A DNA stretch of 64,000 nucleotides from Bradymonadia bacterium (GCA_046290225.1 JBKAGE010000078.1:384001-448000), one strand, 5' to 3'. Numbered from the stretch's first letter, positions 1-15,029 are shown. Notes: a model not told the origin generated them from the sequence alone. Numbers and translations are program-made.

Positions 1-170
1 GGCTGAACACAGACACCCACCAGACAGGCGAGACCAGAGCTGCACGTACCGTTTGGTCCACACGATTGACCGATGGAGGTGTAATCGATGGCGGGCGTGC
101 CGCCCTGGTCGATTTGTGCACATCCCCAGCCCGTCATCATCAGCGTCAGCGCCCAGAGCCCGACTCGCAT
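1..170 (-). CDS. Cys-rich lipoprotein, N-terminal part (truncated by window edge)
   Basis: Manual translation MRVGLWALTLMMTGWGC-AQIDQGG...SCGPNGTCSSGLACLVGVCVQ; signal peptide with lipobox-like Cys; GGAGG RBS upstream; not in ORF track. Confidence 0.7.
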   Translation of the reverse strand, partial: MRVGLWALTLMMTGWGCAQIDQGGTPAIDYTSIGQSCGPNGTCSSGLACLVGVCVQ

Positions 171-357
171 GTTCATCCTCCACCAGTCCGATCAACTCAG
201 ACTGACGCAAGGGCCGGGCCAACCTACCTTCACCACTGTTCTCGAGGACTTTCGCCACCGGCCCCCTGTATGGAGCCCCAAAAACGTGCTGCCCAGGTCA
301 CTGAACACAGCTCAGTGTGTCCATCCGGTCTCACTGGACCTCTGATGCCGCTTTGAG

Positions 358-385
358 TTGAAACCCCCGATACAGCCACTAAGCT
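358..385 (+). promoter_or_regulatory. possible sigma70-type promoter of the flotillin operon
   Basis: TTGAAA-16nt-TAAGCT, ~30 nt before ATG 416; GGGAG RBS at 401-405. Confidence 0.35.
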
Positions 386-415
386 GCCAGACTCGCATCG
401 GGGAGTAGTGCTTAT

Positions 416-1207
416 ATGGCGAGTCTTTCGGACGTCCTTCTGACGTGGCCTACGGTCATGTACACCATCGCGATGGCCCTGATCCTGCTCTACTGGCTCA
501 CGGTCATCCTGGGCGCCCTGGACATCGACGTGCTCGACTTCGACGTCGATCTCGACGGCGGCGTCGATGGCGCGCTGGACGGCGCCCTCGATGGTGCTGT
601 GGATGGTGCCGTCGATGGTGCCGTGGACGCAGCCCTCGATGGTGCAGCAGAGGGCGCAGCGGAAGGGGTCGCAGAAGGCGCAACCGAGGGCGCAGCAGAA
701 GGCGCCGGTGAAAGCAGCGGTGGTCTGCTCTCGGGTCTTTTCGGGTTGCTCGGCGCCTTGAAGCTTCGGGTGGTGCCCGTCACCGTGGCCTTGAGCTTCA
801 TCATCCTCATCGCCTGGAGCGCCACGTTCTTCCTGATGGCCAACTTCGGCGCCGAGATCAGCGGGGTCATGCCCGGCTGGTTGCTCGGTGGCCTCGTGCT
901 GCTTGGGGCCTTCGTCGTGGGCTTGCTCGGCGCCTCGGTGGCGGTGCAACCTCTGGGGCGCTTCTTCCACACCGAGCCTGCAGCTCGACGCAACGCCGTC
1001 ATCGGTCACTTTTGTGAAATCTCCACGGGCCGGGTCGACCACCGATTCGGTCAGGCGCTGTTCCATGACGGCGCCGCCGGCCTCGTGCTGCAGGTGCGTT
1101 GTGATCGGGACAACGGCCTCAAACGAGGAGATCAGGCCCTCATCGTCGACTTCGACGATCATCGGGAGGCCTTCCTCGTCGAAATGATCGACAGATCACG
1201 CTCTTGA
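416..1207 (+). CDS. YqiJ/DUF1449 (NfeD-like) membrane protein with C-terminal OB-fold
   Basis: Several TM segments, acidic D-x repeat loop, VPVTVALS motif, C-terminal G..C.I.TGRVD..FGQA...DG.AGL.L.VRC; directly upstream of a flotillin gene. Confidence 0.85.
   Translation: MASLSDVLLTWPTVMYTIAMALILLYWLTVILGALDIDVLDFDVDLDGGVDGALDGALDGAVDGAVDGAVDAALDGAAEGAAEGVAEGATEGAAEGAGESSGGLLSGLFGLLGALKLRVVPVTVALSFIILIAWSATFFLMANFGAEISGVMPGWLLGGLVLLGAFVVGLLGASVAVQPLGRFFHTEPAARRNAVIGHFCEISTGRVDHRFGQALFHDGAAGLVLQVRCDRDNGLKRGDQALIVDFDDHREAFLVEMIDRSRS
554..709 (+). repeat. 12-bp coding tandem repeat, 13 x (D/E)G(A)x tetrapeptide
   Basis: DGGV DGAL DGAL DGAV DGAV DGAV DAAL DGAA EGAA EGVA EGAT EGAA EGAG. Confidence 0.9.
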
Positions 1208-1259
1208 AACTCAACCTCGTCTGTTCTGCTGACCACTTGCCAAGGAGTTCGCGCCTGTC

Positions 1260-3503
1260 ATGAACTTGCAGTTCCTCCTCATCGCCGTCGGCGTCTTCAT
1301 CGTCATCGTCATCGGGATCCTGGTCATGATCACGCGGTTCTACCGCAAGGTCGATCAGGGTCAGGCCCTCATCGTGAACAAGCTCAAGGCCGAGCCGGAG
1401 GTCACCTTCACCGGCGGGGTGGTGCTGCCCATCGTGCACCGCGCAGAGACCATGGACATCTCGGTGAAAGCCATCGAGATCGCCCGCCGTGGCGCGGAAG
1501 GGCTCATCTGTCGGGACAACATCCGGGCCGACATCAAGGTGAACTTCTTCGTACGGGTGAACAAGACCACCGAAGACGTGCTCAAGGTGGCCCAGAACAT
1601 CGGCTGCGTCCGGGCCAGCGATCGCGCCACCCTGGAAGAGCTGTTCGTGGCGAAGTTCTCCGAAGCCCTGAAGACCGTCGGTAAGCGGCTCGAGTTCGAG
1701 GAGCTCTACACCAAGCGCGAAGAGTTCAAGGACCAGATCGTCGAGGTCATCGGCCGCGATCTCAACGGCTATGTGCTCGACGACGCCGCCATCGACTACC
1801 TCGAGATGACCCCCCTCGACCAGATGGACGCCAACAACATCCTCGACGCCCAGGGCATCCGGAAGATCACCGAGATCACCAGCCAGCAGAACGTGCGCAC
1901 CAACGATCTCAAGCAGACCGAGCGCATGGAGATCGGGCGCCAGAACCTGGCCTCCGACGAAGCCCTGTTCCGCTTCGAGCAGCAGCGCGCCGACGCTGAG
2001 GCCAAAAAGAACAAAGAGGTGGCCATCACCCAGGCCCGTGAGCAGAACGAGGCCCTCCGGGTGCAGCAGGAAGAAGGTAAGAAGACCGCCATCGCTCGGA
2101 ACAAGGCCGAGGAAGAAGTGGCCATCAGCGCCGAGGCCAAGGCCCGCTCCGTCGCCGTAGCGGCGAAGGCGCGGGAGCGCGAGATCGGCGTCGAAGAGGT
2201 GCGCATCAAGAAGGCCTCTGATCTCGAGGAGATCGGCCGCGAGCGCGAGGTGGAGCTGCGACGCATCTCCAAAGAAAAGGATCTCGAGGTCGAGCGGAAG
2301 GACATCGCCGACGTGGTGCGCCAGCGCATCGCCGTGGACAAGACCGTCGCCGAGGAAGAAGAGCGCATCAAAGATCTGCGGGCGCAGGCGGAAGCCGAGC
2401 GTGAGAAGCAGGTGAAGATGGTGAAGGCCGAGGCCGACGCCCAGGAGGCCCTCGTCAAGGAGATCAAGGCCGCCGAGGCCAACGAGGCCGTGGCCAAGTT
2501 CAAGGCCCGGGAGCGCCTCATCAGCGCCGACGCCGAGGTAGAAGCCGCTGACAAGGCCGCCCGCGCCAAGACGCGCCTCGCCGAGGGTGTGCAGGCCGAG
2601 CAGGCCGCCCACGGCCTCGCCGAGGTCCGGGTGCAGGAGGCGCAGGCCGCCGCCATCGAGAAGCAGGGTCTCGCCGAGGCCCGGGTCACCAAGGAGAAGA
2701 TGAACGCCGAGGCCGAGGGTCAGGAGTCCCAGGGCATGGCCCGCCTGAAGGTGCGCCAGGCCGAGGTCGAGGTCACCGAGCAGGAAGGCATGCTCAAGGC
2801 CAAGCTGGTGAGAGAGCAGCGCGAGGCCGAGGCCAACGCCATCGAGCAACAGGGCGTCGCCGAAGCGAAGGTCAAGGAAGCCCACGCCGCGGCCATCGAG
2901 AAGCAGGGCACCGCAGAGGCCGCCGCCATCCGCGAGAAGCTCGCCGCCGAGGCCGCCGGCCTCGCGGAGAAGGCCGAGGCCATGAAGGCCCTCGACGGTG
3001 CCGGTCGGGAGCACGAGGAGTTCCGCATCAAGCTGGAGCAGGAGCGCGAGATCGCCATGGCCAAGATCCAGGCTCGGGTCCAGGTGAGCGAGGCTCAGGC
3101 CCGCGTCATGGCCAACGCCTTCGATCAGGCGAAGATCAACATCGTCGGCGGCGACGGTCAGTTCTTCGACCGGTTCCTCAAGGCTGTGAGCCTCGGCCAC
3201 GCCGTCGACGGCTTCATGGACGCGAGCACCACGGCGCAGACCGCCCTGGGCGAGTACCAGGACGGCAGCCGTAGCTTGCCCAACGATCTCACCGAGATCC
3301 TGAGCCGCCCCGCCATCGGCCCCGAAGGCATCAAGGACCTCTCCCTCGTGGCCTTGATCAAGAAGCTGATGGACGGCGCTGGCCCCGATGACATGGTGAA
3401 GCTGCGGGCCCTGCTGGCCCAGGTGCAGCGCCAGGGCATCGGCGGCCTCTCTCTGCTGCCTGCGGGCACGCACACCAAGGGCACTCCTGACGCCGAGGGC
3501 TGA
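1260..3503 (+). CDS. Flotillin/SPFH (band 7) family protein, YqiK-like
   Basis: N-terminal TM, SPFH domain (GLICRDNIRADIKVNFFVRVN), long AEA-rich coiled coil; AAGGAG RBS. Confidence 0.92.
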   Translation: MNLQFLLIAVGVFIVIVIGILVMITRFYRKVDQGQALIVNKLKAEPEVTFTGGVVLPIVHRAETMDISVKAIEIARRGAEGLICRDNIRADIKVNFFVRVNKTTEDVLKVAQNIGCVRASDRATLEELFVAKFSEALKTVGKRLEFEELYTKREEFKDQIVEVIGRDLNGYVLDDAAIDYLEMTPLDQMDANNILDAQGIRKITEITSQQNVRTNDLKQTERMEIGRQNLASDEALFRFEQQRADAEAKKNKEVAITQAREQNEALRVQQEEGKKTAIARNKAEEEVAISAEAKARSVAVAAKAREREIGVEEVRIKKASDLEEIGREREVELRRISKEKDLEVERKDIADVVRQRIAVDKTVAEEEERIKDLRAQAEAEREKQVKMVKAEADAQEALVKEIKAAEANEAVAKFKARERLISADAEVEAADKAARAKTRLAEGVQAEQAAHGLAEVRVQEAQAAAIEKQGLAEARVTKEKMNAEAEGQESQGMARLKVRQAEVEVTEQEGMLKAKLVREQREAEANAIEQQGVAEAKVKEAHAAAIEKQGTAEAAAIREKLAAEAAGLAEKAEAMKALDGAGREHEEFRIKLEQEREIAMAKIQARVQVSEAQARVMANAFDQAKINIVGGDGQFFDRFLKAVSLGHAVDGFMDASTTAQTALGEYQDGSRSLPNDLTEILSRPAIGPEGIKDLSLVALIKKLMDGAGPDDMVKLRALLAQVQRQGIGGLSLLPAGTHTKGTPDAEG

Positions 3504-6500
3504 TGAGCACCGACACCGAAGTCCAGTCTGATGTCGGAGAAGAAGGCGGCGCTCAGCTCGCCGGGGGCAACTACGACCTGATCCACCGGCGCCTGCTCAA
3601 CCAGGCCGGTGAGCTCAAGGCCCTGGTGGCCGCCCTCGACGAGCGCCGCAAGGCCACCTTCGGCAGCACCGATCTCACCGTGGTGGGCAACGAGCGCGTG
3701 CGGACCGAGCACAACTGCGTGCCTCGGGACATCGCCAACGTCGGCGGCCGCCTGTTGTTCGGCTACAACGTCTTCATGGGACTCAAGCAGGGCACCGCCG
3801 TGGATGACGTGCTGGGCCTGCACCAGTTCAGCGAGGCAGACGGCGGGGGGTTCGACTTCTCCGCCCTCCCCGGCGACGACGCCGACCGGGCCTACCTGCA
3901 GGACCCGCAGTTCCACAAAGACTTCGACGACCTCTACAAGTACTACCGGGACACACGTCTCGCCGCCTTGAGGGTGACGGAGAGTCAGCTGCTCGCCGTG
4001 TTCCAGGTGAGCGAGCGGGTCGACGATCTCAAGGTCTTCCGGTGGCGCATCGAGTCTTCAGGTCAGCTCAGCTACGTCGATAACCGCGGTGATCGGGACT
4101 ACACGTTCCCCCCGAGCCACGACTTCGAGTGGAAGCTCACCGGCCGCGAGCACCACGTCTATGGTGATCACCCTCACGTGAACATCGAAGATGTGGTCTT
4201 CGTGGAGACGGTGGGTGGTGATCTCACCATCAAGATCGAGGACAACACCGAGGACGGCGAGGGCATCTACAGCGAGCCCGTCGACGACGGGAACCAGACC
4301 CTCGACGATGCCGAGATCCATTACGCCCGGGTGGGCCACCTGGTACTGCTCAAGATCCTCCCTTACCGAGAGCTGGCGTATCGCTATCTGGTCTTCAACA
4401 CCCGCACCCACGACGTGCAGCGCATCGACGGCATCGGCGAGGCCTGTGTCCAGTTGCCGGAAGATCACGGCATCATGTTCCCGGGCGGGTACTACCTGAA
4501 TACCGGGGAGCACAAGGTCTTCGAGGGTGAGACCGAGGGCCTCGAGTTCAAGCGCATCATCAAGAGCCCCAACGGCGAAGACGTCATGTACGTCTTCTTC
4601 CGGCGCACCGACGGCCACTATCAGCTGCTGCCGTACAACCTCATCGACAAAGCAGTGCAGAGCCCCATCGAGTGCCACGGCTACAGCCTCTTCGACGACG
4701 GCCGCATGGTGGTGTTCCGTGCTCTGAGCGACGAGCCCACCCGTGTGCACCCCATGCAGGTGTGGCAGACCCCGTTCATGTCGCTTGAGTTCGCCGCCAG
4801 CGCCCCCACGGACAGCCGCTACCCGCAGCTCTCCAAGATCGGGAACGCCGATTTGGTGCGGGGGATCAGCGAGCTGTACTCCATTGAACGACTCGCGGAG
4901 CACCCGCAGCCCAACCGGGCCATCTTCGAAGATCTCATCGCCGCCATCAGCCGCATCGGCGACGCCCACTTCTGGCTCGGCTCGAGCAGCCAGAAAGAAG
5001 GCGCACAGAGCGAGGAAATCGGGGCGATCCCTGAAGCCCTCGATCAGATGCGCCGCACCGCCGATCTCATCGTCGACGAGTACGAGAAGGTGGTCCTGCT
5101 CAAGGATCGGGCGCGGGCGGCCCTCGCCGAGGCCGAGCAGGCCCACAGCGATCTCGTGGCGGGGCTGCGACCTGAAGACTTCCGTCGGGTGGACGACTTC
5201 ATGCAGTCCCTCACCGACTTGCGTACGCGCCGTGGGCAGCTCATCAGCGTCAAAGAGGTGCGTTACATCGACCTCGAGCGCATCGACGCTTTGGAGCAGG
5301 CCACCATCGAGGCCTACGACAAGGTGGGTCGGGCGTGCGTCCGGTTCCTGTTGCGAGATGAAGCCCTCGCCCCCCTCACCGCAGAGATCGATCGTCTGCT
5401 CGCCAGCCTCGAAGGGGTCAAGAAGGTCAAAGAGGTGGCCCCCCTCGTAGAGAAGGCCGACAGCATCAGCGAAGGCCTCGACGTGCTCACCGAAGTCATC
5501 GGCGGCCTCGAGGTGGAGGACGCCACTGAGCGCACCGGCATCTTGGAGTCGATCTCCGAGGTCTTCAGCCATCTGAACCGCGCCCGGGCCACCCTCAAGA
5601 ACAAGCGGAAGAGCCTGCTCACCGCCGAGGGGCAGGCGGAGTTCGCCGCCCAGTTCAAGCTCTTCGGCCAGAGCGCTCAGTCGGCCCTGGGGCTGTGCGA
5701 CACCCCTGAGAAATGTGACGACCAGCTCGGACGCTTGATGGTGCAGCTCGAAGAGCTCGAGGCCCGCTTCAGCGAGTTCGACGAATACCTCGGCGATCTC
5801 GCGAGCAAGCGCGAAGAGGTCTACGAGGCCTTCGCCGCCCACAAGCAGACCCTGCTCGAAGAGCGCCAGCGCCGGGCAGGCAACCTCGTCAAGGCTGGAG
5901 AGCGCATCCTCTCCGGCGTGGCCCGACGGGCCGCCACCATGAAGGGCGACGACGAGCTCAACGCGTGGTTCGCCGCCGACGCCATGGTGATGAAGCTGCG
6001 CACCCTCGTGGAGCAGCTGCGAGATCTCGGTGACGGCGTCAAGGCCGACGAGCTGGAGAGCCGGCTCATCGCCGCCAAGCAAGAGGCCTTGCGAGGTCTA
6101 CGCGATCGCCAGGATCTCTTCGAAGAAGGCGAGAACGTCATCAAGCTCGGGCGTCATCGCTTCAGCGTGAACACCCGCCCCATGGAGCTGACGCTGGTGC
6201 CCCGTGAAGACCGCATGGCGTTTCACCTCACCGGCACCGACTTCTACAGCATCGTCGACGACGAGGTCTTCGAGGCCACCGCCCCCTTCTGGAGCCAGAG
6301 CCTCGTCTCCGAGAGCAAGGCGGTCTATCGCGGGGAATACCTCGCCGCGAGCATCCTCTTCGCCGCAGAGGCCCCAGGCGGCACGTTCTCCCTCGCCGAT
6401 CTGCACGCCGATCTCCGAGGCACAGACGGCGGTCCGGATCATGGCCCTGTGGCCCAGGGCGCGGGTCATCCAGACCCCGGCCTGCTGGCGCGGGTCCGCT

Positions 6501-8986
6501 CCGTGGCGGAGTCGCGGTACGACGAGGGCTACGAGCGTGGCCTGCACGACGCCGACGCAACCCTCATCCTCGAGAAGCTGCTCAACCTGCACGAGGGCGC
6601 CGGCCTGCTGCGCTTCGGGGCGCATATCCGTGCCTTGGGCCAGCTCTTCTGGAGCCACGGCGTCGCCACCGCCTCCGGCGACTTCGAGAAGCTGATGCAG
6701 CAGTGGCATCGCCGGGCGGTGAGCCTCGGGCGCCTGCGGGCCGCCTTCGGCCGGGCCCCTGCCCTCGGGGATCTCGCAGCTGATCTGACTGAGGCCCTGC
6801 AGGTTTTCGTCGACGAGCACGGCCTCGGCGATCATTGGAGCGAGGCCGACCTGCTCCGGGGGGGTCGCTATCTGGTAGAGGAGCTGGCCAAGCCGAAGTT
6901 GAGCTTCACCGTGAGCCAGGAAGCCCGTCACGTGGGCGACGCGCTCTGGAAGGCCCTCGAGGATCATCGAGATCCCGTGCGCACGGGCGGCGCCCTCAGC
7001 GGTCGGGCTGCCTTGGAGGCCGATCTCCGGGCCTTCGATCAGCTCTCCGACGGGCAGTCGCTGATCCATCGATTCGAGGTGCTCGTGGCCTGGATCGAGG
7101 CCTTCGTGGGCGCCAAGGGCGATGAGGGAGAGCGGCACCTGATCACCGAGGTGGCGGCGCTGCTCACCGACGAGCGACTCCCGCGCAAGGCCACCGCCGC
7201 CCTCACCGAGACCACAGTCGAAGGCCTGCTCGGGCAGCACCGCCGAATCGAAGACGGCAAGATGGTGCTGCGGATCGACGAGTTCCTCGGGCGCCTCACC
7301 GACTTCGTGGAGCATCAGGTGCCGGGCTATCGCGGCTACCGCCAGGCCCGAACCACGCTGCTCGAGACCACCCGTAGCCAGCTTCGCCTCGACGAGTACA
7401 CCCCCAAGGTGATGAGCGCCTTCGTGCGCAACCGCCTCATCGACGAGGTCTATCTGCACATGGTCGGCGACAACCTCGCCAAGCAGATGGGCAGCGTCGG
7501 CGAGGGCAAGCGCACCGACCAGATGGGCCTGCTGCTGCTCGTCTCCCCACCCGGGTACGGCAAGACCACCCTCATGGAGTACGTGGCCAACCGCCTGGGC
7601 CTCGTCTTCGTGAAGGTGAACGGCCCCGCCCTGGGCCATGGCGTCATCTCCCTCGACCCTTCGGAGGCCCCCAACGCCACCGCCCGACAAGAGGTGGACA
7701 AGATCAACTTCGCCCTCGAGATGGGCAACAACGTGATGCTCTATCTCGACGACATCCAGCACACCCACCCGGAGCTGCTGCAGAAGTTCATCAGCCTCTG
7801 CGATGCCCAGCGGCGCATCGAGGGCGTCTGGAAGGGGCGCACCCGGACCTATGACCTGCGGGGCAAGAAGTTCTGCGTGGTCATGGCCGGGAACCCCTAC
7901 ACCGAGTCGGGTGATCGCTTTCAGATCCCCGACATGCTGGCCAACCGCGCCGACACCTACAACCTCGGTGACATCCTCGAAGGTCGGGACGAGGTCTTCG
8001 CGCTGAGCTACGTGGAGAACAGCCTCACCAGCAACCCCACCCTGGCGCCTCTGGCCACCCGAGATCGCGAAGACATCCACCGGTTCATCAAGAAGGCTCA
8101 GGGCGCCGAGATCGCCGACACCGACTTCAGCCACGCCTACTCAGCGGTGGAGATCAACGAGATCACCGAGGTGCTCAAGCGGCTGTTCCAGGTCCGCGAT
8201 GTCTTGCTGGCGGTGAACTTGATGTACATCGAGTCCGCTGCTCAGGAAGACGCCTACCGCACTGAGCCGCCCTTCAAGCTGCAAGGCAGCTACCGCAACA
8301 TGAACAAGGTGGCGGAGAAGGTGGTGGCGGCGATGAACGCCGCAGAGCTCGAGGCCCTCATCGACGATCACTACGCCGGTGAAAGCCAGACCCTCACCGC
8401 CGGCGCCGAGGCCAATCTGCTCAAGCTCGCGGAGCTACGAAACCGCATGAGCCCCGAGCAGTCTCAGCGCTGGGCCACGATCAAGTCCGACTTCAGCCGC
8501 AACACCCGTATGGGCGGCGACGAGACAGATCCGGCGACCCGCATCGCGGGCCTGCTCGCCGATGTGGGGCAAAGCCTCGAGCGCATCGGCCACGCGGTGT
8601 CCACCGTGGGCCAGCCTCAGTCGGGCGTAGTGGCGGAGCTTCAGGGCATGAAGGCCCTTTTGCTCGCCGCAATGGAAGAAGCGAAGTCGTCCCCGATGCC
8701 CACGAGTGGCCCCAGCCCGGATCAGGGCGCCCTGGCAACAGCCCTGGCAGGTCTGCAGAGCGCTGTGGAGCAGGCCACCCGCCCCGTGGTGGATCTGCGC
8801 ATCGAGAACGCGCCGCCGCCAGGCGTCGAAGAGCTGCTGGGTCAGCACGTGGCCATCGTCGAGCGCACGCTGGTGCCGCTCGTACAGACGGCGACGCAGT
8901 ACATGCACGATGGTGGCTCATTGGTCGAAGAGCTGCGAACGCTGCTCGATCACCTTCGAGCGGCCACTTCGGGAGGTGCTTCATGA
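3503..8986 (+). CDS. Large AAA+ ATPase (DUF3686 / so-called 'DNA repair ATPase' family), 1827 aa
   Basis: Beta-rich N-terminus, long coiled coil, C-terminal AAA+ domain with Walker A SPPGYGKTT, Walker B MLYLDD, sensor-1 VMAGN, Arg-finger LANR; TGATG overlap with flotillin stop. Confidence 0.88.
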   Translation: MSTDTEVQSDVGEEGGAQLAGGNYDLIHRRLLNQAGELKALVAALDERRKATFGSTDLTVVGNERVRTEHNCVPRDIANVGGRLLFGYNVFMGLKQGTAVDDVLGLHQFSEADGGGFDFSALPGDDADRAYLQDPQFHKDFDDLYKYYRDTRLAALRVTESQLLAVFQVSERVDDLKVFRWRIESSGQLSYVDNRGDRDYTFPPSHDFEWKLTGREHHVYGDHPHVNIEDVVFVETVGGDLTIKIEDNTEDGEGIYSEPVDDGNQTLDDAEIHYARVGHLVLLKILPYRELAYRYLVFNTRTHDVQRIDGIGEACVQLPEDHGIMFPGGYYLNTGEHKVFEGETEGLEFKRIIKSPNGEDVMYVFFRRTDGHYQLLPYNLIDKAVQSPIECHGYSLFDDGRMVVFRALSDEPTRVHPMQVWQTPFMSLEFAASAPTDSRYPQLSKIGNADLVRGISELYSIERLAEHPQPNRAIFEDLIAAISRIGDAHFWLGSSSQKEGAQSEEIGAIPEALDQMRRTADLIVDEYEKVVLLKDRARAALAEAEQAHSDLVAGLRPEDFRRVDDFMQSLTDLRTRRGQLISVKEVRYIDLERIDALEQATIEAYDKVGRACVRFLLRDEALAPLTAEIDRLLASLEGVKKVKEVAPLVEKADSISEGLDVLTEVIGGLEVEDATERTGILESISEVFSHLNRARATLKNKRKSLLTAEGQAEFAAQFKLFGQSAQSALGLCDTPEKCDDQLGRLMVQLEELEARFSEFDEYLGDLASKREEVYEAFAAHKQTLLEERQRRAGNLVKAGERILSGVARRAATMKGDDELNAWFAADAMVMKLRTLVEQLRDLGDGVKADELESRLIAAKQEALRGLRDRQDLFEEGENVIKLGRHRFSVNTRPMELTLVPREDRMAFHLTGTDFYSIVDDEVFEATAPFWSQSLVSESKAVYRGEYLAASILFAAEAPGGTFSLADLHADLRGTDGGPDHGPVAQGAGHPDPGLLARVRSVAESRYDEGYERGLHDADATLILEKLLNLHEGAGLLRFGAHIRALGQLFWSHGVATASGDFEKLMQQWHRRAVSLGRLRAAFGRAPALGDLAADLTEALQVFVDEHGLGDHWSEADLLRGGRYLVEELAKPKLSFTVSQEARHVGDALWKALEDHRDPVRTGGALSGRAALEADLRAFDQLSDGQSLIHRFEVLVAWIEAFVGAKGDEGERHLITEVAALLTDERLPRKATAALTETTVEGLLGQHRRIEDGKMVLRIDEFLGRLTDFVEHQVPGYRGYRQARTTLLETTRSQLRLDEYTPKVMSAFVRNRLIDEVYLHMVGDNLAKQMGSVGEGKRTDQMGLLLLVSPPGYGKTTLMEYVANRLGLVFVKVNGPALGHGVISLDPSEAPNATARQEVDKINFALEMGNNVMLYLDDIQHTHPELLQKFISLCDAQRRIEGVWKGRTRTYDLRGKKFCVVMAGNPYTESGDRFQIPDMLANRADTYNLGDILEGRDEVFALSYVENSLTSNPTLAPLATRDREDIHRFIKKAQGAEIADTDFSHAYSAVEINEITEVLKRLFQVRDVLLAVNLMYIESAAQEDAYRTEPPFKLQGSYRNMNKVAEKVVAAMNAAELEALIDDHYAGESQTLTAGAEANLLKLAELRNRMSPEQSQRWATIKSDFSRNTRMGGDETDPATRIAGLLADVGQSLERIGHAVSTVGQPQSGVVAELQGMKALLLAAMEEAKSSPMPTSGPSPDQGALATALAGLQSAVEQATRPVVDLRIENAPPPGVEELLGQHVAIVERTLVPLVQTATQYMHDGGSLVEELRTLLDHLRAATSGGAS

Positions 8987-9225
8987 TCGTCCGCGTGCCG
9001 TGGGATTCACTGCCCACCGAGACGCTCAATCGCCTGGTGGAAGAGTTCGTCACCCGCGATGGTACAGACTACGGGGAGCACGAGGTCGATACGGAGACCA
9101 AGGTGGTCCAAGTGCTGGGCCAGCTGCGCAAAGGCGATGTCGTGATCACCTTCGACAGCGATTTGGGCACCGCCAACATCGTGCTGAAGAAAGACGCCCC
9201 ACCGGCCCCAGAGGTCAGCGGCTGA
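8983..9225 (+). CDS. yheU: YheU (UPF0270) family protein
   Basis: VPWDSLPTETLNRLVEEFVTRDGTDYG signature; ATGA overlap with ATPase stop; GGAGGT RBS. Confidence 0.85.
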   Translation: MIVRVPWDSLPTETLNRLVEEFVTRDGTDYGEHEVDTETKVVQVLGQLRKGDVVITFDSDLGTANIVLKKDAPPAPEVSG

Positions 9226-9982
9226 GGCGTTTCACCACCTGCTCGGCCACCCCCATGGCCGAGGCAGGGTTCTGGCCCGTGATCAGTCGATCGCTCACCG
9301 CCACGTTGGCCTTGAAGTTCTCCACCCCGATGAACTCCGCCCCACGCTCGCGCATCTTGCTCTCGAGCAGAAACGGCACCACCTCGGTGAGCTCCACCGC
9401 GGTCTCCTCGGCGTTGGTGAAGGCGGCGACCCTCTTGCCCTTCACGAGGTACTCGCCATCGGAGAGCTTCACGTTCACCAATGCCACCGGCCCATGGCAG
9501 ACCGCGGCCACCACCCCACCCTTCTCGTAGATGTCGGCGGTGAGCCTCTGGAGTATGGGGTCGTCGGGCAGATCCCACATCGTGCCGTGGCCGCCGGCGA
9601 AGAAGATGGCGTCGTAGTCCGAAGCCTTCACCTCCGAGGCCTTTACGGTATTCAGCGTGCGGCCCACCTTCTTGGGATCGTCGAGGAAGTCCACGTTGAT
9701 GGCATCTTCTCGGTTCACCCCGTCCATGGGCGCCTTGCCGCCCTTGGGCGAGACAAAGGTCATCTCGAAGCCCGCTTTGGAGAAGACATGAAACGGATGA
9801 CTGACCTCGGACAAGAAGAACCCGGTCTCTTTGCCGGTCTTGCCGAGCTCACCGTGGCTGGTGAGCACCATGAGGATGTGAGGTGGTTTGTTGCTCTTGG
9901 TGTGCTCCTTGGCCTCCGCAAGGCCAGAGAAGGCAGCGACGAGGCACAAAGCAATGAAGACCCTACGACTGGCTGACGACAC
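9215..9982 (-). CDS. DJ-1/PfpI (Hsp31-like) type 1 glutamine amidotransferase-domain protein with predicted signal peptide
   Basis: TSH..LG.TG..TGF..SE, GGHGTMWD, AVCHGP, LITGQNPAS motifs. Confidence 0.9.
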   Translation of the reverse strand: MSSASRRVFIALCLVAAFSGLAEAKEHTKSNKPPHILMVLTSHGELGKTGKETGFFLSEVSHPFHVFSKAGFEMTFVSPKGGKAPMDGVNREDAINVDFLDDPKKVGRTLNTVKASEVKASDYDAIFFAGGHGTMWDLPDDPILQRLTADIYEKGGVVAAVCHGPVALVNVKLSDGEYLVKGKRVAAFTNAEETAVELTEVVPFLLESKMRERGAEFIGVENFKANVAVSDRLITGQNPASAMGVAEQVVKRLSR

Positions 9983-10085
9983 TGACGAACTCTCGTGAAG
10001 TGAATGTGCGCCGGATCAGATGCCAGATCGACGCGATGCGTTCCATCGCCTCGGGCTCCCGCTCACCGACCTGCTGGGCACCCGC

Positions 10086-10565
10086 TCACATCTCGCCGGG
10101 CTCCCAGTGGGTCACCTCGAAGGTGGTGCTGCCCAGCTCCACTCCATCTTCGTCGAAGACCTTCACCTCCCAGTTGCCCATCTGGCTCACGCGCTTCATC
10201 GTGCTGCGGGACCAGGTGCGCCAGCGGCTGCTCTTGCCCACGTTCAGATCGACAGCCCACTTCCGCTTGCCGTCCTTGTACCAGACCATCCTCACCTGCT
10301 GGGCAGGCCCCGTGCGGTTGTTGAAGACAGCGTAGGCATGCACCGTGGGCTCATCAGGCAGCCGGAAGGCGGTGTTCTCGCCCTTCAACCGGCGCTTCTC
10401 TACGCCGGTGCCCATCTTCAGCGTGACGAGCTTGATGGCGCCCGCCTCGGCGGGGCCAGCGACGCCTCCATCTTCGATGTCGTGGGGGTCTTCTCCTGCC
10501 TGAGCGATGCCAGCGGTGCCGAGGATGAGGGCGAGGAGCAGGGTGAAGCGGGTGATGAGCGACAT
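10086..10565 (-). CDS. Secreted DUF2914-like domain protein
   Basis: AGGAGG RBS before ATG 10565; signal peptide; V.L.VG.S.RWRTWS...G.W.V.V.D..G..LG...FEV motif. Confidence 0.75.
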   Translation of the reverse strand: MSLITRFTLLLALILGTAGIAQAGEDPHDIEDGGVAGPAEAGAIKLVTLKMGTGVEKRRLKGENTAFRLPDEPTVHAYAVFNNRTGPAQQVRMVWYKDGKRKWAVDLNVGKSSRWRTWSRSTMKRVSQMGNWEVKVFDEDGVELGSTTFEVTHWEPGEM

Positions 10566-12677: not shown

Positions 12678-14807
12678 TCAGGGGCAGGCATCACCCCCAG
12701 CGATGGTGAACCTGATCAGATAGCCAGTGCTCCCCTGCCAGCTCGTCTGCCCGCCGACGACGAAGCCACCATCGCACCCAGGCCTGAAGGCTGCGTCATA
12801 GAGGTAGGTGTTGCTGTCAGCGTTGTACGGCGGATCTTCCCAGCCAGGGACTGAGACGTCGATCATCTCGCACACCAGGGCATCACACCGATACAGGTCG
12901 TGGCGATACTCGATCACGGTGCCCCGCAGAGGGTTCACGCCACTGCGGCCGAGAATCAAGGCCCGACGCCCGTTGGGCTGGAAGGCGACGCCGTAGATGC
13001 CCTGACGGGAGAACCGGGGGGCATCACCGTACGCATTGAGCTGCCCACCCTCGAATCGGTAGACCGCGCGGCCCGACCAGCTGACCACCAGGGCGTAGTC
13101 TCCACCAGGCCAGCGGGCCACTCGAGACGTGTTCCCGAGGTTGTTGTTTCCAGGGTTCACCCGCCACTCTCCCACCCCACCGATGACGGCATAGAACAGG
13201 GTCTCGGCGCCGTTCTCCCCACAGGCCACGAAGACGCCGGTGCCACCAAACTCGTCGGGGGCGAAGGCGATGTCGTCACACCCGGTGCCTGAGAACTGCG
13301 CGGGGGCCTGCCCCACGAACTCACCGAGGCCTTCTGGGCCGCCGAAGGGATCGAAAGACCACAAGAAGGCGGTCCGCGCGCCTGAGTTCCCACCTCGGCC
13401 CAAGATGACGGGGTGCGCCCAGTTGTCGTCTGCCCAGGGGGGCATCTCCACTGCTTCGAAGGTGATCCCAGGCAGGCGGCCCACTTCGCTCACCGCAGGC
13501 AGGCCTGCTTGCCAGAGCAGATGATCGAACCAGAACACCACCCCGGCGGGGGCGTCGTCGACGGCCCCGACGATGAGCGCCCCTCGGCCGTCTCGGGTGA
13601 AGTTCACGTCTCTCAGACGCAGCCCACCACCAAGGGCCACAGGGGTGGCCTGGCCCGTCGCCCAATCCACGACGAAGAGCCGATCGTTCCGCTCAAGCGT
13701 GATGGCGTATTCACCCTGCGGGTGGAACGCGATCTGGTGCAGCTCGTCGAGGCCACCCACCGGCAGGCGATCGTAGACATAAGCGCCTGGGGGAGGCGTG
13801 GGCTGCTCCACGAAGGCGTCCGGTACGCTGAAGTCGGGCACCCCCTCGTCAGGGATCTCGGCGTCGGGGATTTCGAAGTCCGGGATCTCCATGTCGGGGA
13901 TCTCCATGTCGGGGATCTCTACATCAGGTACTTCTGCATCTGGTACCTCTGCATCTGGAACCTCCATGTCGGGGATCTCCGCATCGGGCACCGCGATGTC
14001 CGGGATGTCTGCATCCGGTACCAAAACATCAGGCAGCTCAGCATCCGGGATCTCCATGTCAGGGATCTCTACATCCGGGATCTGGGCATCAGGGATTGCC
14101 GCATCGGGCACCTCGGCATCCGGTACCTCACGATCGGGCACCTCGGCATCTGGAATCTCCATGTCGGGGATCTCAGCGTCGGGGCCAGTGGAGGAGGCAT
14201 CAGGCACCAACATGTCGATCATCGACGCGTCGGGCACCTGTACATCTAGCAACTCTGCGTCGGGTACATCGGCGTCAGGAGACGAAGCATCGGGTGCCTG
14301 CATGTCCGGTACGGGTCGAGCGTCAGGCACGCCTTCGTCGAGCAGCTCAGCGTCCTCGACAGCGGCATCGAGGACCTGATTCGGCCGCTCTGGCTGGCAC
14401 AACCCATCGAGACATGCCTCTCCGAGCAGGCAGTCGTCGGCCCCGTCACATGACCGACCGCCCAGAGGCACACAGATGCGCAATTGTGGATCACAGGCCT
14501 GGTCTTGTGGGCAGTCCCGATTGCGGCTGCAGGCGATCGACGCGTCACTCTGACACTCACCCACTCCGCAGTCGCGATCCGGATCGAGAGCAGGGGCTAC
14601 AGTGCAGGTGCCCTCGACGCAGGTGGCGCCCCGTGGACAGTCCGTACTGGTGGTACAGCTCCCACACCCACCGTCGCTGCACCGCGGGCCCGCTGTTCCG
14701 CCACCTCCGTCACCGTCAGCGCACCCTCCGAGGAGCATCACCAGCGCACACAGAGCGGCCCTGGCCCAGGCCATGCCTCTCACAATCGATGCCAATGATG
14801 CGTTCAC
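12678..14807 (-). CDS. Cys-rich lipoprotein with Pro-Asp repeat stalk and C-terminal beta-propeller-like domain
   Basis: Lipobox LLGGC; C-x4-C-x5-C-x4-C repeats; PDxEx repeats; propeller-like blades (IAFHPQG, VNFTRDG, IAFAPD, VARWPGG, VAFQPNG, AAFRPG); start is GTG 14807 or ATG 14774. Confidence 0.8.
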   Translation of the reverse strand: MNASLASIVRGMAWARAALCALVMLLGGCADGDGGGGTAGPRCSDGGCGSCTTSTDCPRGATCVEGTCTVAPALDPDRDCGVGECQSDASIACSRNRDCPQDQACDPQLRICVPLGGRSCDGADDCLLGEACLDGLCQPERPNQVLDAAVEDAELLDEGVPDARPVPDMQAPDASSPDADVPDAELLDVQVPDASMIDMLVPDASSTGPDAEIPDMEIPDAEVPDREVPDAEVPDAAIPDAQIPDVEIPDMEIPDAELPDVLVPDADIPDIAVPDAEIPDMEVPDAEVPDAEVPDVEIPDMEIPDMEIPDFEIPDAEIPDEGVPDFSVPDAFVEQPTPPPGAYVYDRLPVGGLDELHQIAFHPQGEYAITLERNDRLFVVDWATGQATPVALGGGLRLRDVNFTRDGRGALIVGAVDDAPAGVVFWFDHLLWQAGLPAVSEVGRLPGITFEAVEMPPWADDNWAHPVILGRGGNSGARTAFLWSFDPFGGPEGLGEFVGQAPAQFSGTGCDDIAFAPDEFGGTGVFVACGENGAETLFYAVIGGVGEWRVNPGNNNLGNTSRVARWPGGDYALVVSWSGRAVYRFEGGQLNAYGDAPRFSRQGIYGVAFQPNGRRALILGRSGVNPLRGTVIEYRHDLYRCDALVCEMIDVSVPGWEDPPYNADSNTYLYDAAFRPGCDGGFVVGGQTSWQGSTGYLIRFTIAGGDACP
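13809..14183 (-). repeat. 15-bp coding tandem repeat, 25 x PD(A/M/V)E(I/V)-type pentapeptide
   Basis: PDAEI PDMEI PDAEV PDREV ... PDFSV PDAFV, with more degenerate copies to ~14370. Confidence 0.92.
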
Positions 14808-15029
14808 AGATCTCTCCCAGGCACATCTTCTTCGGGGGCAGCCCATCGCGTCGCCCCTTCGTTCCACCGCACAACCCCGAGGGTCAGCAGTCGGCAACAT
14901 ATCAAGCCCACCACGTCGCAGGCGAGCCCCAGCCTGCCCACGGTACGGCGAAGCCAACTGCCTGCTCTTGCCTGCCCTCGATTGCTGGCGCAGGATAGGC
15001 CTCCTCACTCGCCATGTGGAGCGACTTGC

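What the first reader, a model, noticed from the sequence alone, without database searches (positions are those of the whole stretch)
416..9225. NfeD-like + flotillin + giant AAA+ ATPase (+YheU) operon: candidate uncharacterised membrane-cage/ATPase machine
Seen: four co-oriented genes. Flotillin and ATPase overlap at TGATG (3501-3505), and ATPase and yheU overlap at ATGA. The 1827-aa ATPase has a beta-rich N-terminus, a long coiled coil and one C-terminal AAA+ domain, and no nuclease or DNA-binding motif that I can recognise. Known: YqiJ/YqiK-type NfeD-flotillin pairs form membrane microdomains, SPFH proteins build cages that can enclose AAA+ enzymes (HflK/C with FtsH), and similar operons elsewhere often include PspA. 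Inference: the 'DNA repair ATPase' label is probably wrong, and this is a flotillin-cage-associated motor for membrane remodelling, envelope stress or phage defence. There is no pspA directly upstream here; that position holds a divergent lipoprotein gene.
Basis: partly seen in the sequence, partly recalled or inferred. Interest (0 to 1): 0.78.

Follow-up and report, generated by a model that had tools for sequence, protein, structure and literature searches.

The report
Flotillin scaffold with giant partner ATPase
A gene for a membrane-scaffold protein (flotillin) and a gene for a 1,827-residue ATPase travel together in every genome checked that has the ATPase; the unit was catalogued in 2024 but no test of the ATPase was found, and it likely opens or dismantles the scaffold instead of repairing DNA as its database name says.

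Summary
The four ORFs and both overlaps are real, but only three genes form the unit. yheU lies next to the ATPase in 0 of 42 other genomes that carry it. The YqiJ/NfeD + flotillin + propeller/helical-rod/AAA+ unit was described computationally by Ravi et al. 2024, including forms without pspA. It is orthologous to P. aeruginosa bacCDE (28/50/47% identity; published primers map onto the locus). This scan also noted it twice on other DNA. New here: (1) The ATPase and one long-walled flotillin subtype match almost one to one: all 41 ATPase genomes among 653 searched carry it, and 29 generic flotillins have no ATPase. (2) pspA is adjacent in only 4 of 42, and this genome's PspA has its own classical AAA partner. 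(3) The modelled AAA domain is closest to MoxR remodellers (CbbQ/NorQ), and the 'coiled coil' models as a spectrin-like rod. (4) The inferred flotillin wall is about twice that of human flotillin. Best reading (0.55): a cytoplasmic hexameric motor that remodels its flotillin cage during envelope stress. Binding and activity are untested, and no complex prediction was available.

The parts
416..1207 (+). YqiJ/short-NfeD-like membrane protein, 263 aa: N-terminal hydrophobic segment, low-complexity Asp/Gly/Ala linker, three further hydrophobic segments, small C-terminal domain; orthologue of P. aeruginosa BacC
   Evidence: ORF; hydropathy; 12/24-nt tandem repeats 533-705; YqiJ_N in 6 of 42 family members; 28% identity to the gene before bacD in L127
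1260..3503 (+). Long-walled flotillin (SPFH) protein, 747 aa: one N-terminal membrane segment, SPFH domain (about aa 30-172), about 375-aa helical wall (about aa 208-583, inferred), 42-aa cap segment, C-terminal tail; orthologue of BacD/PaFlo3
   Evidence: Band_7 E 5.8e-12; FloT model E 5.8e-5; family profile hits human flotillin-2 at E 0.003; segment lengths; 50% identity to BacD in L127
3503..8986 (+). DUF3686 giant AAA+ ATPase, 1827 aa, no membrane segment; orthologue of BacE (PA14_16190)
   Evidence: 47% identity over 1786 aa to the L127 protein
3671..4774 (+). ATPase aa 57-424: all-beta domain modelled as a distorted WD40-like propeller (predicted)
   Evidence: AlphaFold2 mean pLDDT 88.7; best VIA Z 10.9, rmsd 6.1, 211 aligned, against the DCAF1 WD40 domain
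5003..6121 (+). ATPase aa 501-873: rod of helical bundles, spectrin-repeat-like (predicted); length nearly fixed across homologues
   Evidence: best VIA Z 11.6, rmsd 8.3, 265 aligned, against beta2-spectrin repeats (under the Z 13 caution for helical folds); rod 367-378 aa in 44 homologues
6122..7372 (+). ATPase aa 874-1290: middle alpha/beta domain, no family assigned
   Evidence: modelled at high confidence; no Pfam hit; Atlas best score 0.78, a lead only
7373..8446 (+). ATPase aa about 1291-1648: single AAA+ module of MoxR/dynein type; Walker A K1354, Walker B D1416/D1417, sensor-1 N1464, R1482 (arginine-finger position) and R1598 (sensor-2 position)
   Evidence: all five residues invariant in 64 of 64 aligned sequences (the role names are from general AAA+ knowledge); VIA ranks 1-10 CbbQ/NorQ, Z 15.1-17.3
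8983..9225 (+). yheU (UPF0270), 80 aa: overlaps the ATPase stop here but is a local neighbour, not part of the conserved unit
   Evidence: present in 11 of 42 ATPase genomes, adjacent in 0 of 42

Best explanation
The three genes form a conserved unit in which the ATPase is likely the dedicated motor of a flotillin cage on the cytoplasmic face of the membrane. Shown: gene order, the near one-to-one pairing of the ATPase with this flotillin subtype, intact ATPase motifs, orthology to bacCDE. Predicted: propeller + spectrin-like rod + MoxR-type AAA module. Inferred: (1) The flotillin builds a tall basket, with the YqiJ/NfeD protein helping assembly as proposed for other SPFH-NfeD pairs. (2) The ATPase forms a hexameric ring whose propeller-tipped arms grip the cage. 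(3) ATP hydrolysis threads a flotillin tail, or a membrane protein held in the cage, through the ring to open, empty or dismantle the cage during envelope stress. PspA is an optional add-on in some lineages and probably not the core substrate.
For: Pairing: ATPase in 27 of 151, 9 of 301 and 5 of 201 genomes. The close flotillin subtype (46-72% identity) is in all 41 of them: 40 by search, G125 as a contig-end half gene. The 29 generic flotillins (24-31%) in the 301-genome sample have no ATPase. The two genes are adjacent in 35 of 38 non-seed genomes; in the 3 split cases both are kept. Same compartment: basic residues follow the flotillin's single membrane segment and the ATPase has none (positive-inside rule, inference). 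AAA class: the ten best structural matches are CbbQ/NorQ, then dynein and Rea1, all protein remodellers. No VWA adaptor motif in 0 of 48 loci (simple pattern), so the long N-terminus plausibly does the targeting. Wall indels keep helical register (mean cos 0.83 at period 3.64; 0 of 20,000 random draws), as expected for a continuous barrel wall. In P. aeruginosa the operon is co-transcribed (PMC10948618), its PspA member rises on osmotic shock (PMC2587700), and PA3728-PA3732 rise on phage JG024 infection (bioRxiv 2024.09.13.612609).
Against: No binding, oligomer or ATPase activity is shown for any member. The genes are split in 3 of 38 genomes, and G101 has a flotillin piece without an ATPase hit (2.4-kb contig, in-frame TAG). 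Wall length (313-437 aa) does not covary with ATPase segment lengths (rho 0.07-0.19, n = 44), so a simple ruler-like fit inside the cage is unsupported. The bacD (paFlo3) deletion gave only about 20% less biofilm; the paper reports SPFH mutants largely unaffected in growth, motility, oxidative stress and virulence (PMC13086221). A pa3728 insertion mutant served as a normally growing control (bioRxiv 2025.04.01.646390). Foldseek ranks RuvB and MCM second to tenth at near-equal E-values. Walker B reads DD instead of DE, and Walker A starts with Ser. Related genomes are not independent samples.
Confidence: 0.55

Rival explanations
1. The ATPase is a bacterial Vps4 equivalent that disassembles PspA (ESCRT-III) polymers, with the flotillin as a docking scaffold; where pspA is not adjacent it works on a PspA encoded elsewhere, as Ravi et al. 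suggest.
For: CesT/DUF2170-pspA precede the unit in P. aeruginosa-type loci and in Hymenobacter. PspA is present in 40 of 42 ATPase genomes, and in 26 of 27 versus 81 of 124 ATPase-less genomes of this phylum. PMC11237479.
Against: pspA is adjacent in only 4 of 42 genomes and in 0 of 26 of this phylum. None was found in G105 or G154. This genome's single PspA sits in a TerB-like/PspA/classical-AAA operon, repeated in 4 family genomes of 10 loci checked. Within the own family PspA is in 6 of 6 ATPase-less genomes, so co-presence is uninformative there. The AAA domain is MoxR-like, not Vps4-like.
Confidence: 0.15
2. The genes are co-regulated members of one stress response, but the ATPase acts as a MoxR-type chaperone on some other complex and never touches the flotillin.
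For: The genes are split in 3 of 38 genomes. There is no length covariation. The closest solved relatives act on third-party enzymes through an adaptor (titles).
Against: No third gene is conserved beside the unit: the 64 nearest flanking ORFs scanned are heterogeneous. No VWA motif. The pairing is specific to one flotillin subtype.
Confidence: 0.13
3. The unit is an anti-phage system: the cage senses or blocks infection at the membrane and the ATPase triggers or resets it.
For: Patchy distribution. 13 records in the plasmid collection, including pQBR103; some are chromosome-sized. The operon is induced by phage JG024. A PLD-domain gene follows in P. aeruginosa-type loci.
Against: PADLOC gives only weak P-loop hits for the ATPase and none for the other three proteins. 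17 of 125 flanking ORFs hit PADLOC at 1e-10, mostly through generic domains (kinase, ABC, methyltransferase, sigma-54 activator, OmpA, helicase), with no recurring system (no background set was run). The three-gene form has no recognisable effector. Phage induction is also typical of Psp responses.
Confidence: 0.12
4. The ATPase works in DNA repair, as the Pfam/RefSeq label says.
For: The label itself. RuvB and MCM are high in the Foldseek list. Some basic residues around the pre-sensor-1 hairpin are conserved. Single flanking UvrA-type, exonuclease and helicase genes occur.
Against: No nuclease or DNA-binding family passes cut-off. All five segments counted are net acidic. MCM and RuvB are absent from the top 50 by VIA Z. 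Its constant partners are membrane proteins. No paper tying DUF3686 to DNA repair was found.
Confidence: 0.05

Closest known systems
Band-7/flotillin + YqiJ/YuaF + 'beta-propeller + coiled-coil + AAA-ATPase' operon of Ravi et al. 2024 (PMC11237479; term passages and two supplement rows read)
   Same: Same three genes in the same order. The paper names abbreviated operons without CesT/Tir-PspA as widespread.
   Different: Computational only. The passages read do not give the AAA clade, the one-to-one pairing with one flotillin subtype, or the long wall. The paper proposes cooperation with a PspA elsewhere, which is weakly supported in this lineage.
Pseudomonas aeruginosa bacABCDEF (PMC10948618, PMC2587700, PMC13086221; term passages, plus supplement rows of the first)
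   Same: BacC, BacD and BacE are 28, 50 and 47% identical to the window's three proteins. All four published bacD/E/F junction primers match locus L127, and the bacD-bacE amplicon is 557 bp as published.
   Different: The window lacks bacA (DUF2170), bacB (PspA) and bacF (PLD). No sigma-54 site on the + strand upstream of 416. The bacE-bacF primers span 176 bp in L127 against 501 in the paper's table (unexplained).
HflK/C cage with FtsH; human flotillin-1/2 cage (PMC11260169, passages read)
   Same: An SPFH protein paired with an AAA+ enzyme. The family profile aligns to the flotillin-2 wall.
   Different: The ATPase is soluble, has no protease domain and is MoxR-type. The inferred wall is about 370 aa, against 186 in flotillin and 44-189 in the SPFH proteins listed in that paper.
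MoxR AAA+ remodellers CbbQ and NorQ (PDB 6l1q, 9qh4 and related); dynein AAA1; Rea1
   Same: Best structural matches of the AAA module: CbbQ Z 17.3, rmsd 3.8, 253 aligned; dynein Z 14.8; Rea1 Z 13.8.
   Different: About 15% identity. CbbQ and NorQ are about 260-aa proteins, NorQ solved with a VWA adaptor. This protein has about 1,290 extra N-terminal residues, and no VWA gene was found beside it.

Membership tests
Ravi 2024 flotillin/YqiJ/propeller-AAA operon (abbreviated form) | TM + Band-7 + long helical flotillin gene | tested here: met
Ravi 2024 flotillin/YqiJ/propeller-AAA operon (abbreviated form) | YqiJ/YuaF-type membrane protein upstream | tested here: met
   No hit for the window protein alone; YqiJ_N in 6 of 42 aligned homologues; homologues annotated DUF1449 and called short NfeD in PMC13086221
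Ravi 2024 flotillin/YqiJ/propeller-AAA operon (abbreviated form) | [quoted passage not shown] | tested here: met
   (propeller match is moderate, Z 10.9, rmsd 6.1)
Full P. aeruginosa bac / CesT-PspA operon | DUF2170/CesT and pspA upstream, PLD gene downstream | tested here: not met
   Upstream is a divergent lipoprotein-like gene, downstream yheU and a convergent PfpI gene; the only PspA is on contig C20
BacC/BacD/BacE protein families | Full-length similarity and same gene order as the primer-verified locus | tested here: met
MoxR/dynein-type AAA+ proteins | AAA module closest in structure to MoxR members, with hairpin before sensor 1 and long helix before sensor 2 | tested here: met
   AAA_5 in 48 of 48 members; VIA ranks 1-10; secondary structure. 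Based on a predicted model.
MoxR/dynein-type AAA+ proteins | VWA-domain adaptor gene nearby (typical of MoxR proper; recalled) | tested here: not met
   0 of 48 loci with the simple motif; no VWA family among 64 flanking ORFs
MoxR/dynein-type AAA+ proteins | Hexamer formation and ATP hydrolysis | not testable with these tools
   Motifs invariant in 64 of 64; no assay
SPFH cage enclosing an AAA+ enzyme (HflK/C-FtsH type) | Membrane-anchored AAA protease | tested here: not met
   No hydrophobic segment, no peptidase family
SPFH cage enclosing an AAA+ enzyme (HflK/C-FtsH type) | Physical complex of cage and ATPase | not tested
Catalogued anti-phage systems (PADLOC 2.0) | Components match a system's models | tested here: not met
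   Only weak P-loop hits, E 0.001-0.002, for the ATPase; none for the other three proteins
DNA-repair or helicase AAA+ motors (RuvB, MCM) | Family-level match and a DNA-binding or nuclease module | tested here: inconclusive
   RuvB models hit only the P-loop, 20.7 bits against cut-off 282; high in Foldseek, not in VIA top 50; no DNA-binding family passed

The most novel reading that the evidence does not exclude
BacE-family ATPases are dedicated ATP-driven opening and disassembly motors for an SPFH cage, the role Vps4 plays for ESCRT-III. They would act on a cage whose wall is about twice as long as human flotillin's, using propeller-tipped spectrin-like arms on a MoxR/dynein-type ring, and would need no PspA. 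I found no such motor in the papers searched.
Probability: 0.3. Interest if true: 0.8.

Novelty: new member of a known kind. Interest (0 to 1): 0.4.

Why it matters
How SPFH/flotillin cages are opened or recycled is unsettled, and a recent review states that a Vps4-like ATPase appears absent from bacterial ESCRT-III systems (PMC7619361, passage read). This unit offers a minimal, PspA-free, three-gene version in which the question can be tested with one Walker mutant. It would also correct a 'DNA repair ATPase' label carried by many database entries. The gene cluster itself is not new, so the value lies in the untested mechanism.

Tried and rejected
yheU as a fourth member: rejected (0 of 42; no tblastn hit beside the ATPase in the 40 loci or the 26 phylum loci). 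A single long coiled coil: replaced by a helical-bundle rod. Length matching between cage wall and ATPase segments: none. A conserved fourth partner, VWA adaptor or defence-island context: not found (one search scanned 64 of the 125 flanking ORFs, many cut to 480 aa). Sigma-70 promoter: 0 found in 1-10200. Sigma-54 site: none on the + strand before 416. Solved relatives by sequence: only P-loop matches for the ATPase, none for the single flotillin or the NfeD profile. Phage collection: no match for the AAA module at 1e-10. Atlas: own family only; nothing above 0.78 for the middle domain. RNA runs: no RNA holder listed, which is no evidence. Complex prediction of the flotillin C-terminus with the ATPase N-terminus: tool not available, no result. 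The flotillin was not folded, as both jobs went to the ATPase, so wall boundaries rest on alignments. Distance-matrix correlation of flotillin and ATPase (rho 0.71-0.76) was not used as evidence because shared ancestry explains it. The 40 loci are mostly Psychrobacter and were not used for the main counts (flotillin upstream in 37 of 40; 2 of the 3 misses are at contig ends). Literature search was swamped by an unrelated enzyme name.


Full report
Observation. The ATPase carries DUF3686 (aa 37-490), DUF7902 (620-704) and one AAA module. The 747-aa protein shows its SPFH domain only when its N-terminal 210 aa are scanned alone (Band_7, E 5.8e-12). The 263-aa protein is assigned through its homologues (YqiJ_N in 6 of 42). 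The genome has one DUF3686 gene and one PspA, on another contig.

What belongs to the unit. PF12458 was found in 27 of 151 genomes of the own phylum, 9 of 301 in the phylum of Brumicola and 5 of 201 in the phylum of Actinoplanes. Each count includes a seed genome chosen for having the gene. The flotillin N-terminus as query separates a close subtype (46-72% identity) from generic flotillins (24-31%). The close subtype occurs in the same 9 and the same 5 genomes and in 26 of the 27 own-phylum genomes. The 27th, G125, has the gene's C-terminal half at a contig end. One genome, G101, has a close-type piece with an in-frame TAG on a 2.4-kb contig and no ATPase hit. The 29 generic flotillins of the 301-genome sample have no ATPase. 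Of 38 non-seed genomes, 35 have the flotillin upstream on the same strand within about 2 kb; G060, G080 and G478 keep both genes apart. The YqiJ-like gene precedes the flotillin in 21 of 23 own-phylum loci with enough flank. yheU is in 11 of 42 ATPase genomes and adjacent in none. These genomes are related, so the counts are not independent events.

PspA. It is adjacent in 4 of 42 ATPase genomes, none of them among the 26 of this phylum, and present somewhere in 40 of 42. In this phylum 26 of 27 ATPase genomes and 81 of 124 others have PspA. This genome's PspA lies between a TerB-like gene and a 594-aa classical AAA gene. The same three-gene order recurs in 4 family genomes, and PspA + AAA in one more, of 10 PspA loci checked. 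So the local PspA already has an ATPase neighbour, and the flotillin-ATPase pair looks like the stable core.

ATPase anatomy (predicted). AlphaFold2 on aa 1-880 (69 sequences, pLDDT 88.7) gives an N-terminal helix, an all-beta domain (57-424) and a run of helices to 873. The beta domain matches WD40 propellers moderately (Z 10.9, rmsd 6.1, 211 aligned). The helical part matches spectrin repeats best (Z 11.6, rmsd 8.3, 265 aligned), which for helical folds shows only a common arrangement. Aa 860-1720 (48 sequences, pLDDT 89.1) give a middle domain without a family and one AAA module. Foldseek puts CbbQ first, with RuvB and MCM close behind. VIA re-alignment puts CbbQ/NorQ at ranks 1-10 (Z 15.1-17.3), then dynein (14.8) and Rea1 (13.8), with MCM and RuvB outside the top 50. 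K1354, D1416, D1417, N1464, R1482 and R1598 are invariant in 64 of 64 diverse sequences, so the site is probably active although Walker B reads DD. The protein has no hydrophobic segment and is net acidic in each of five segments.

Flotillin anatomy (inferred from alignments; not folded). One membrane segment is followed by basic residues, so the rest is probably cytoplasmic, with the ATPase. The family profile aligns its later helical part to the wall of human flotillin-2 (E 0.003). The stretch between SPFH domain and cap is 313-437 aa in 47 homologues, median 368, and the cap segment is 42 aa in all 47. Length changes fall almost wholly in aa 470-552 and keep helical register (17 distinct differences, mean cos 0.83 at period 3.64, 0 of 20,000 random draws; no signal at the heptad period 3.5). 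The human flotillin wall is 186 aa in a 22-nm-high cage (PMC11260169, passages), so this cage would be about twice as tall. Wall length does not covary with ATPase segment lengths.

What is known. Ravi et al. 2024 (PMC11237479; term passages and supplement rows) describe this operon with CesT/Tir-PspA and state that abbreviated forms with only flotillin, YqiJ/YuaF and sometimes the ATPase are more widespread. I tested the link to P. aeruginosa bacABCDEF directly. The four junction primers in the supplement of PMC10948618 all match locus L127. Its genes are DUF2170, PspA, YqiJ-like, flotillin, DUF3686 ATPase and PLD, with 28, 50 and 47% identity to the window's proteins. The bacD-bacE amplicon is 557 bp as published; the bacE-bacF pair spans 176 bp against 501 published. 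Experimental data concern mostly the upstream genes: co-transcription and accumulation in a bacA mutant, osmotic induction of BacB (PMC2587700), induction of PA3728-PA3732 by phage JG024 (one passage). A bacD deletion lowers biofilm by about 20% and little else was seen (PMC13086221, passages). A pa3728 insertion mutant grew normally as a control. PA3728 is listed in a review table of genes recurring across cystic-fibrosis isolate studies (PMC8190622, one row). Searches for DUF3686 (0 papers), flotillin + 'DNA repair ATPase' (0) and the listings (40 of 88 listed in the last) showed no biochemical or structural study of the ATPase. Subscription papers are mostly not searched, the bioRxiv supplements are closed, and the web tables of Ravi et al. 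were not seen. No paper was read whole. Two earlier notes of this scan reached the same assignment on other genomes; they are not independent support.

Mechanism. MoxR-type rings remodel partner proteins (general knowledge; titles), usually through a VWA adaptor, and none was found here. The simplest reading is that the 1,290-aa N-terminus supplies the targeting and that the target is the one protein that always travels with it. I therefore commit to a cage-remodelling motor acting in envelope stress (0.55). Rivals: PspA disassembler (0.15), co-regulated but non-binding chaperone (0.13), phage defence (0.12) and DNA repair (0.05). Every step from gene pairing to physical action is inferred, and the complex prediction could not be run.

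Verdict. A real, conserved three-gene unit and a new member of a kind already catalogued, with yheU as a bystander. Interest 0.4: the cluster is known, but its mechanism is open and cheap to test.

Noticed in passing
G000:C20:4734-8331 (L134), - strand: The genome's only PspA lies between a duplicated TerB-like gene and a 594-aa classical AAA ATPase; the same order occurs in four family genomes. It resembles the PspA + two-domain AAA association mentioned by Ravi et al., but the TerB-like partner did not appear in the paper's main text.
   Followed up: partly
G000:C82:124306-124923, - strand: A second, generic flotillin-like gene (31% identity over the SPFH region) elsewhere in this genome.
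   Followed up: no
window 9215-9982, - strand: A PfpI/DJ-1-family gene with a signal-peptide-like N-terminus converges on yheU and overlaps its end by 11 bases.
   Followed up: no
window 533-705: 12/24-nt tandem repeats encode the Asp/Gly/Ala linker of the YqiJ-like protein; homologues keep an acidic stretch of variable length there.
   Followed up: partly
window 1-176, - strand, continuing to G000:C78:382530: Divergent 548-aa lipoprotein-like gene with a Pro/Asp/Glu-rich linker and no Pfam hit.
   Followed up: partly
window 12678-15008, - strand: Large ORF with a Cys-rich N-terminal part and about 22 copies of a 15-nt repeat (13852-14184).
   Followed up: no
L129:53-11187 (plasmid pQBR103): The unit follows DUF2491, DUF350, DUF1190 and glutathionylspermidine-synthase genes, joining two operon classes that Ravi et al. 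list separately.
   Followed up: no
L111:5615-6862 and L112:5609-6862, - strand: A rhomboid protease gene lies between the ATPase and the PLD gene in two bac-type loci.
   Followed up: no
L116:5934-7834: Two near-identical ORFs of about 310 aa are inserted between flotillin and ATPase.
   Followed up: no
G025:C14:17210-18888 (L077): A partial second copy of the flotillin N-terminus lies directly upstream of the full gene.
   Followed up: no
G161:C43:208579-209916 (L099): The ATPase match has one in-frame TGA near its start.
   Followed up: no
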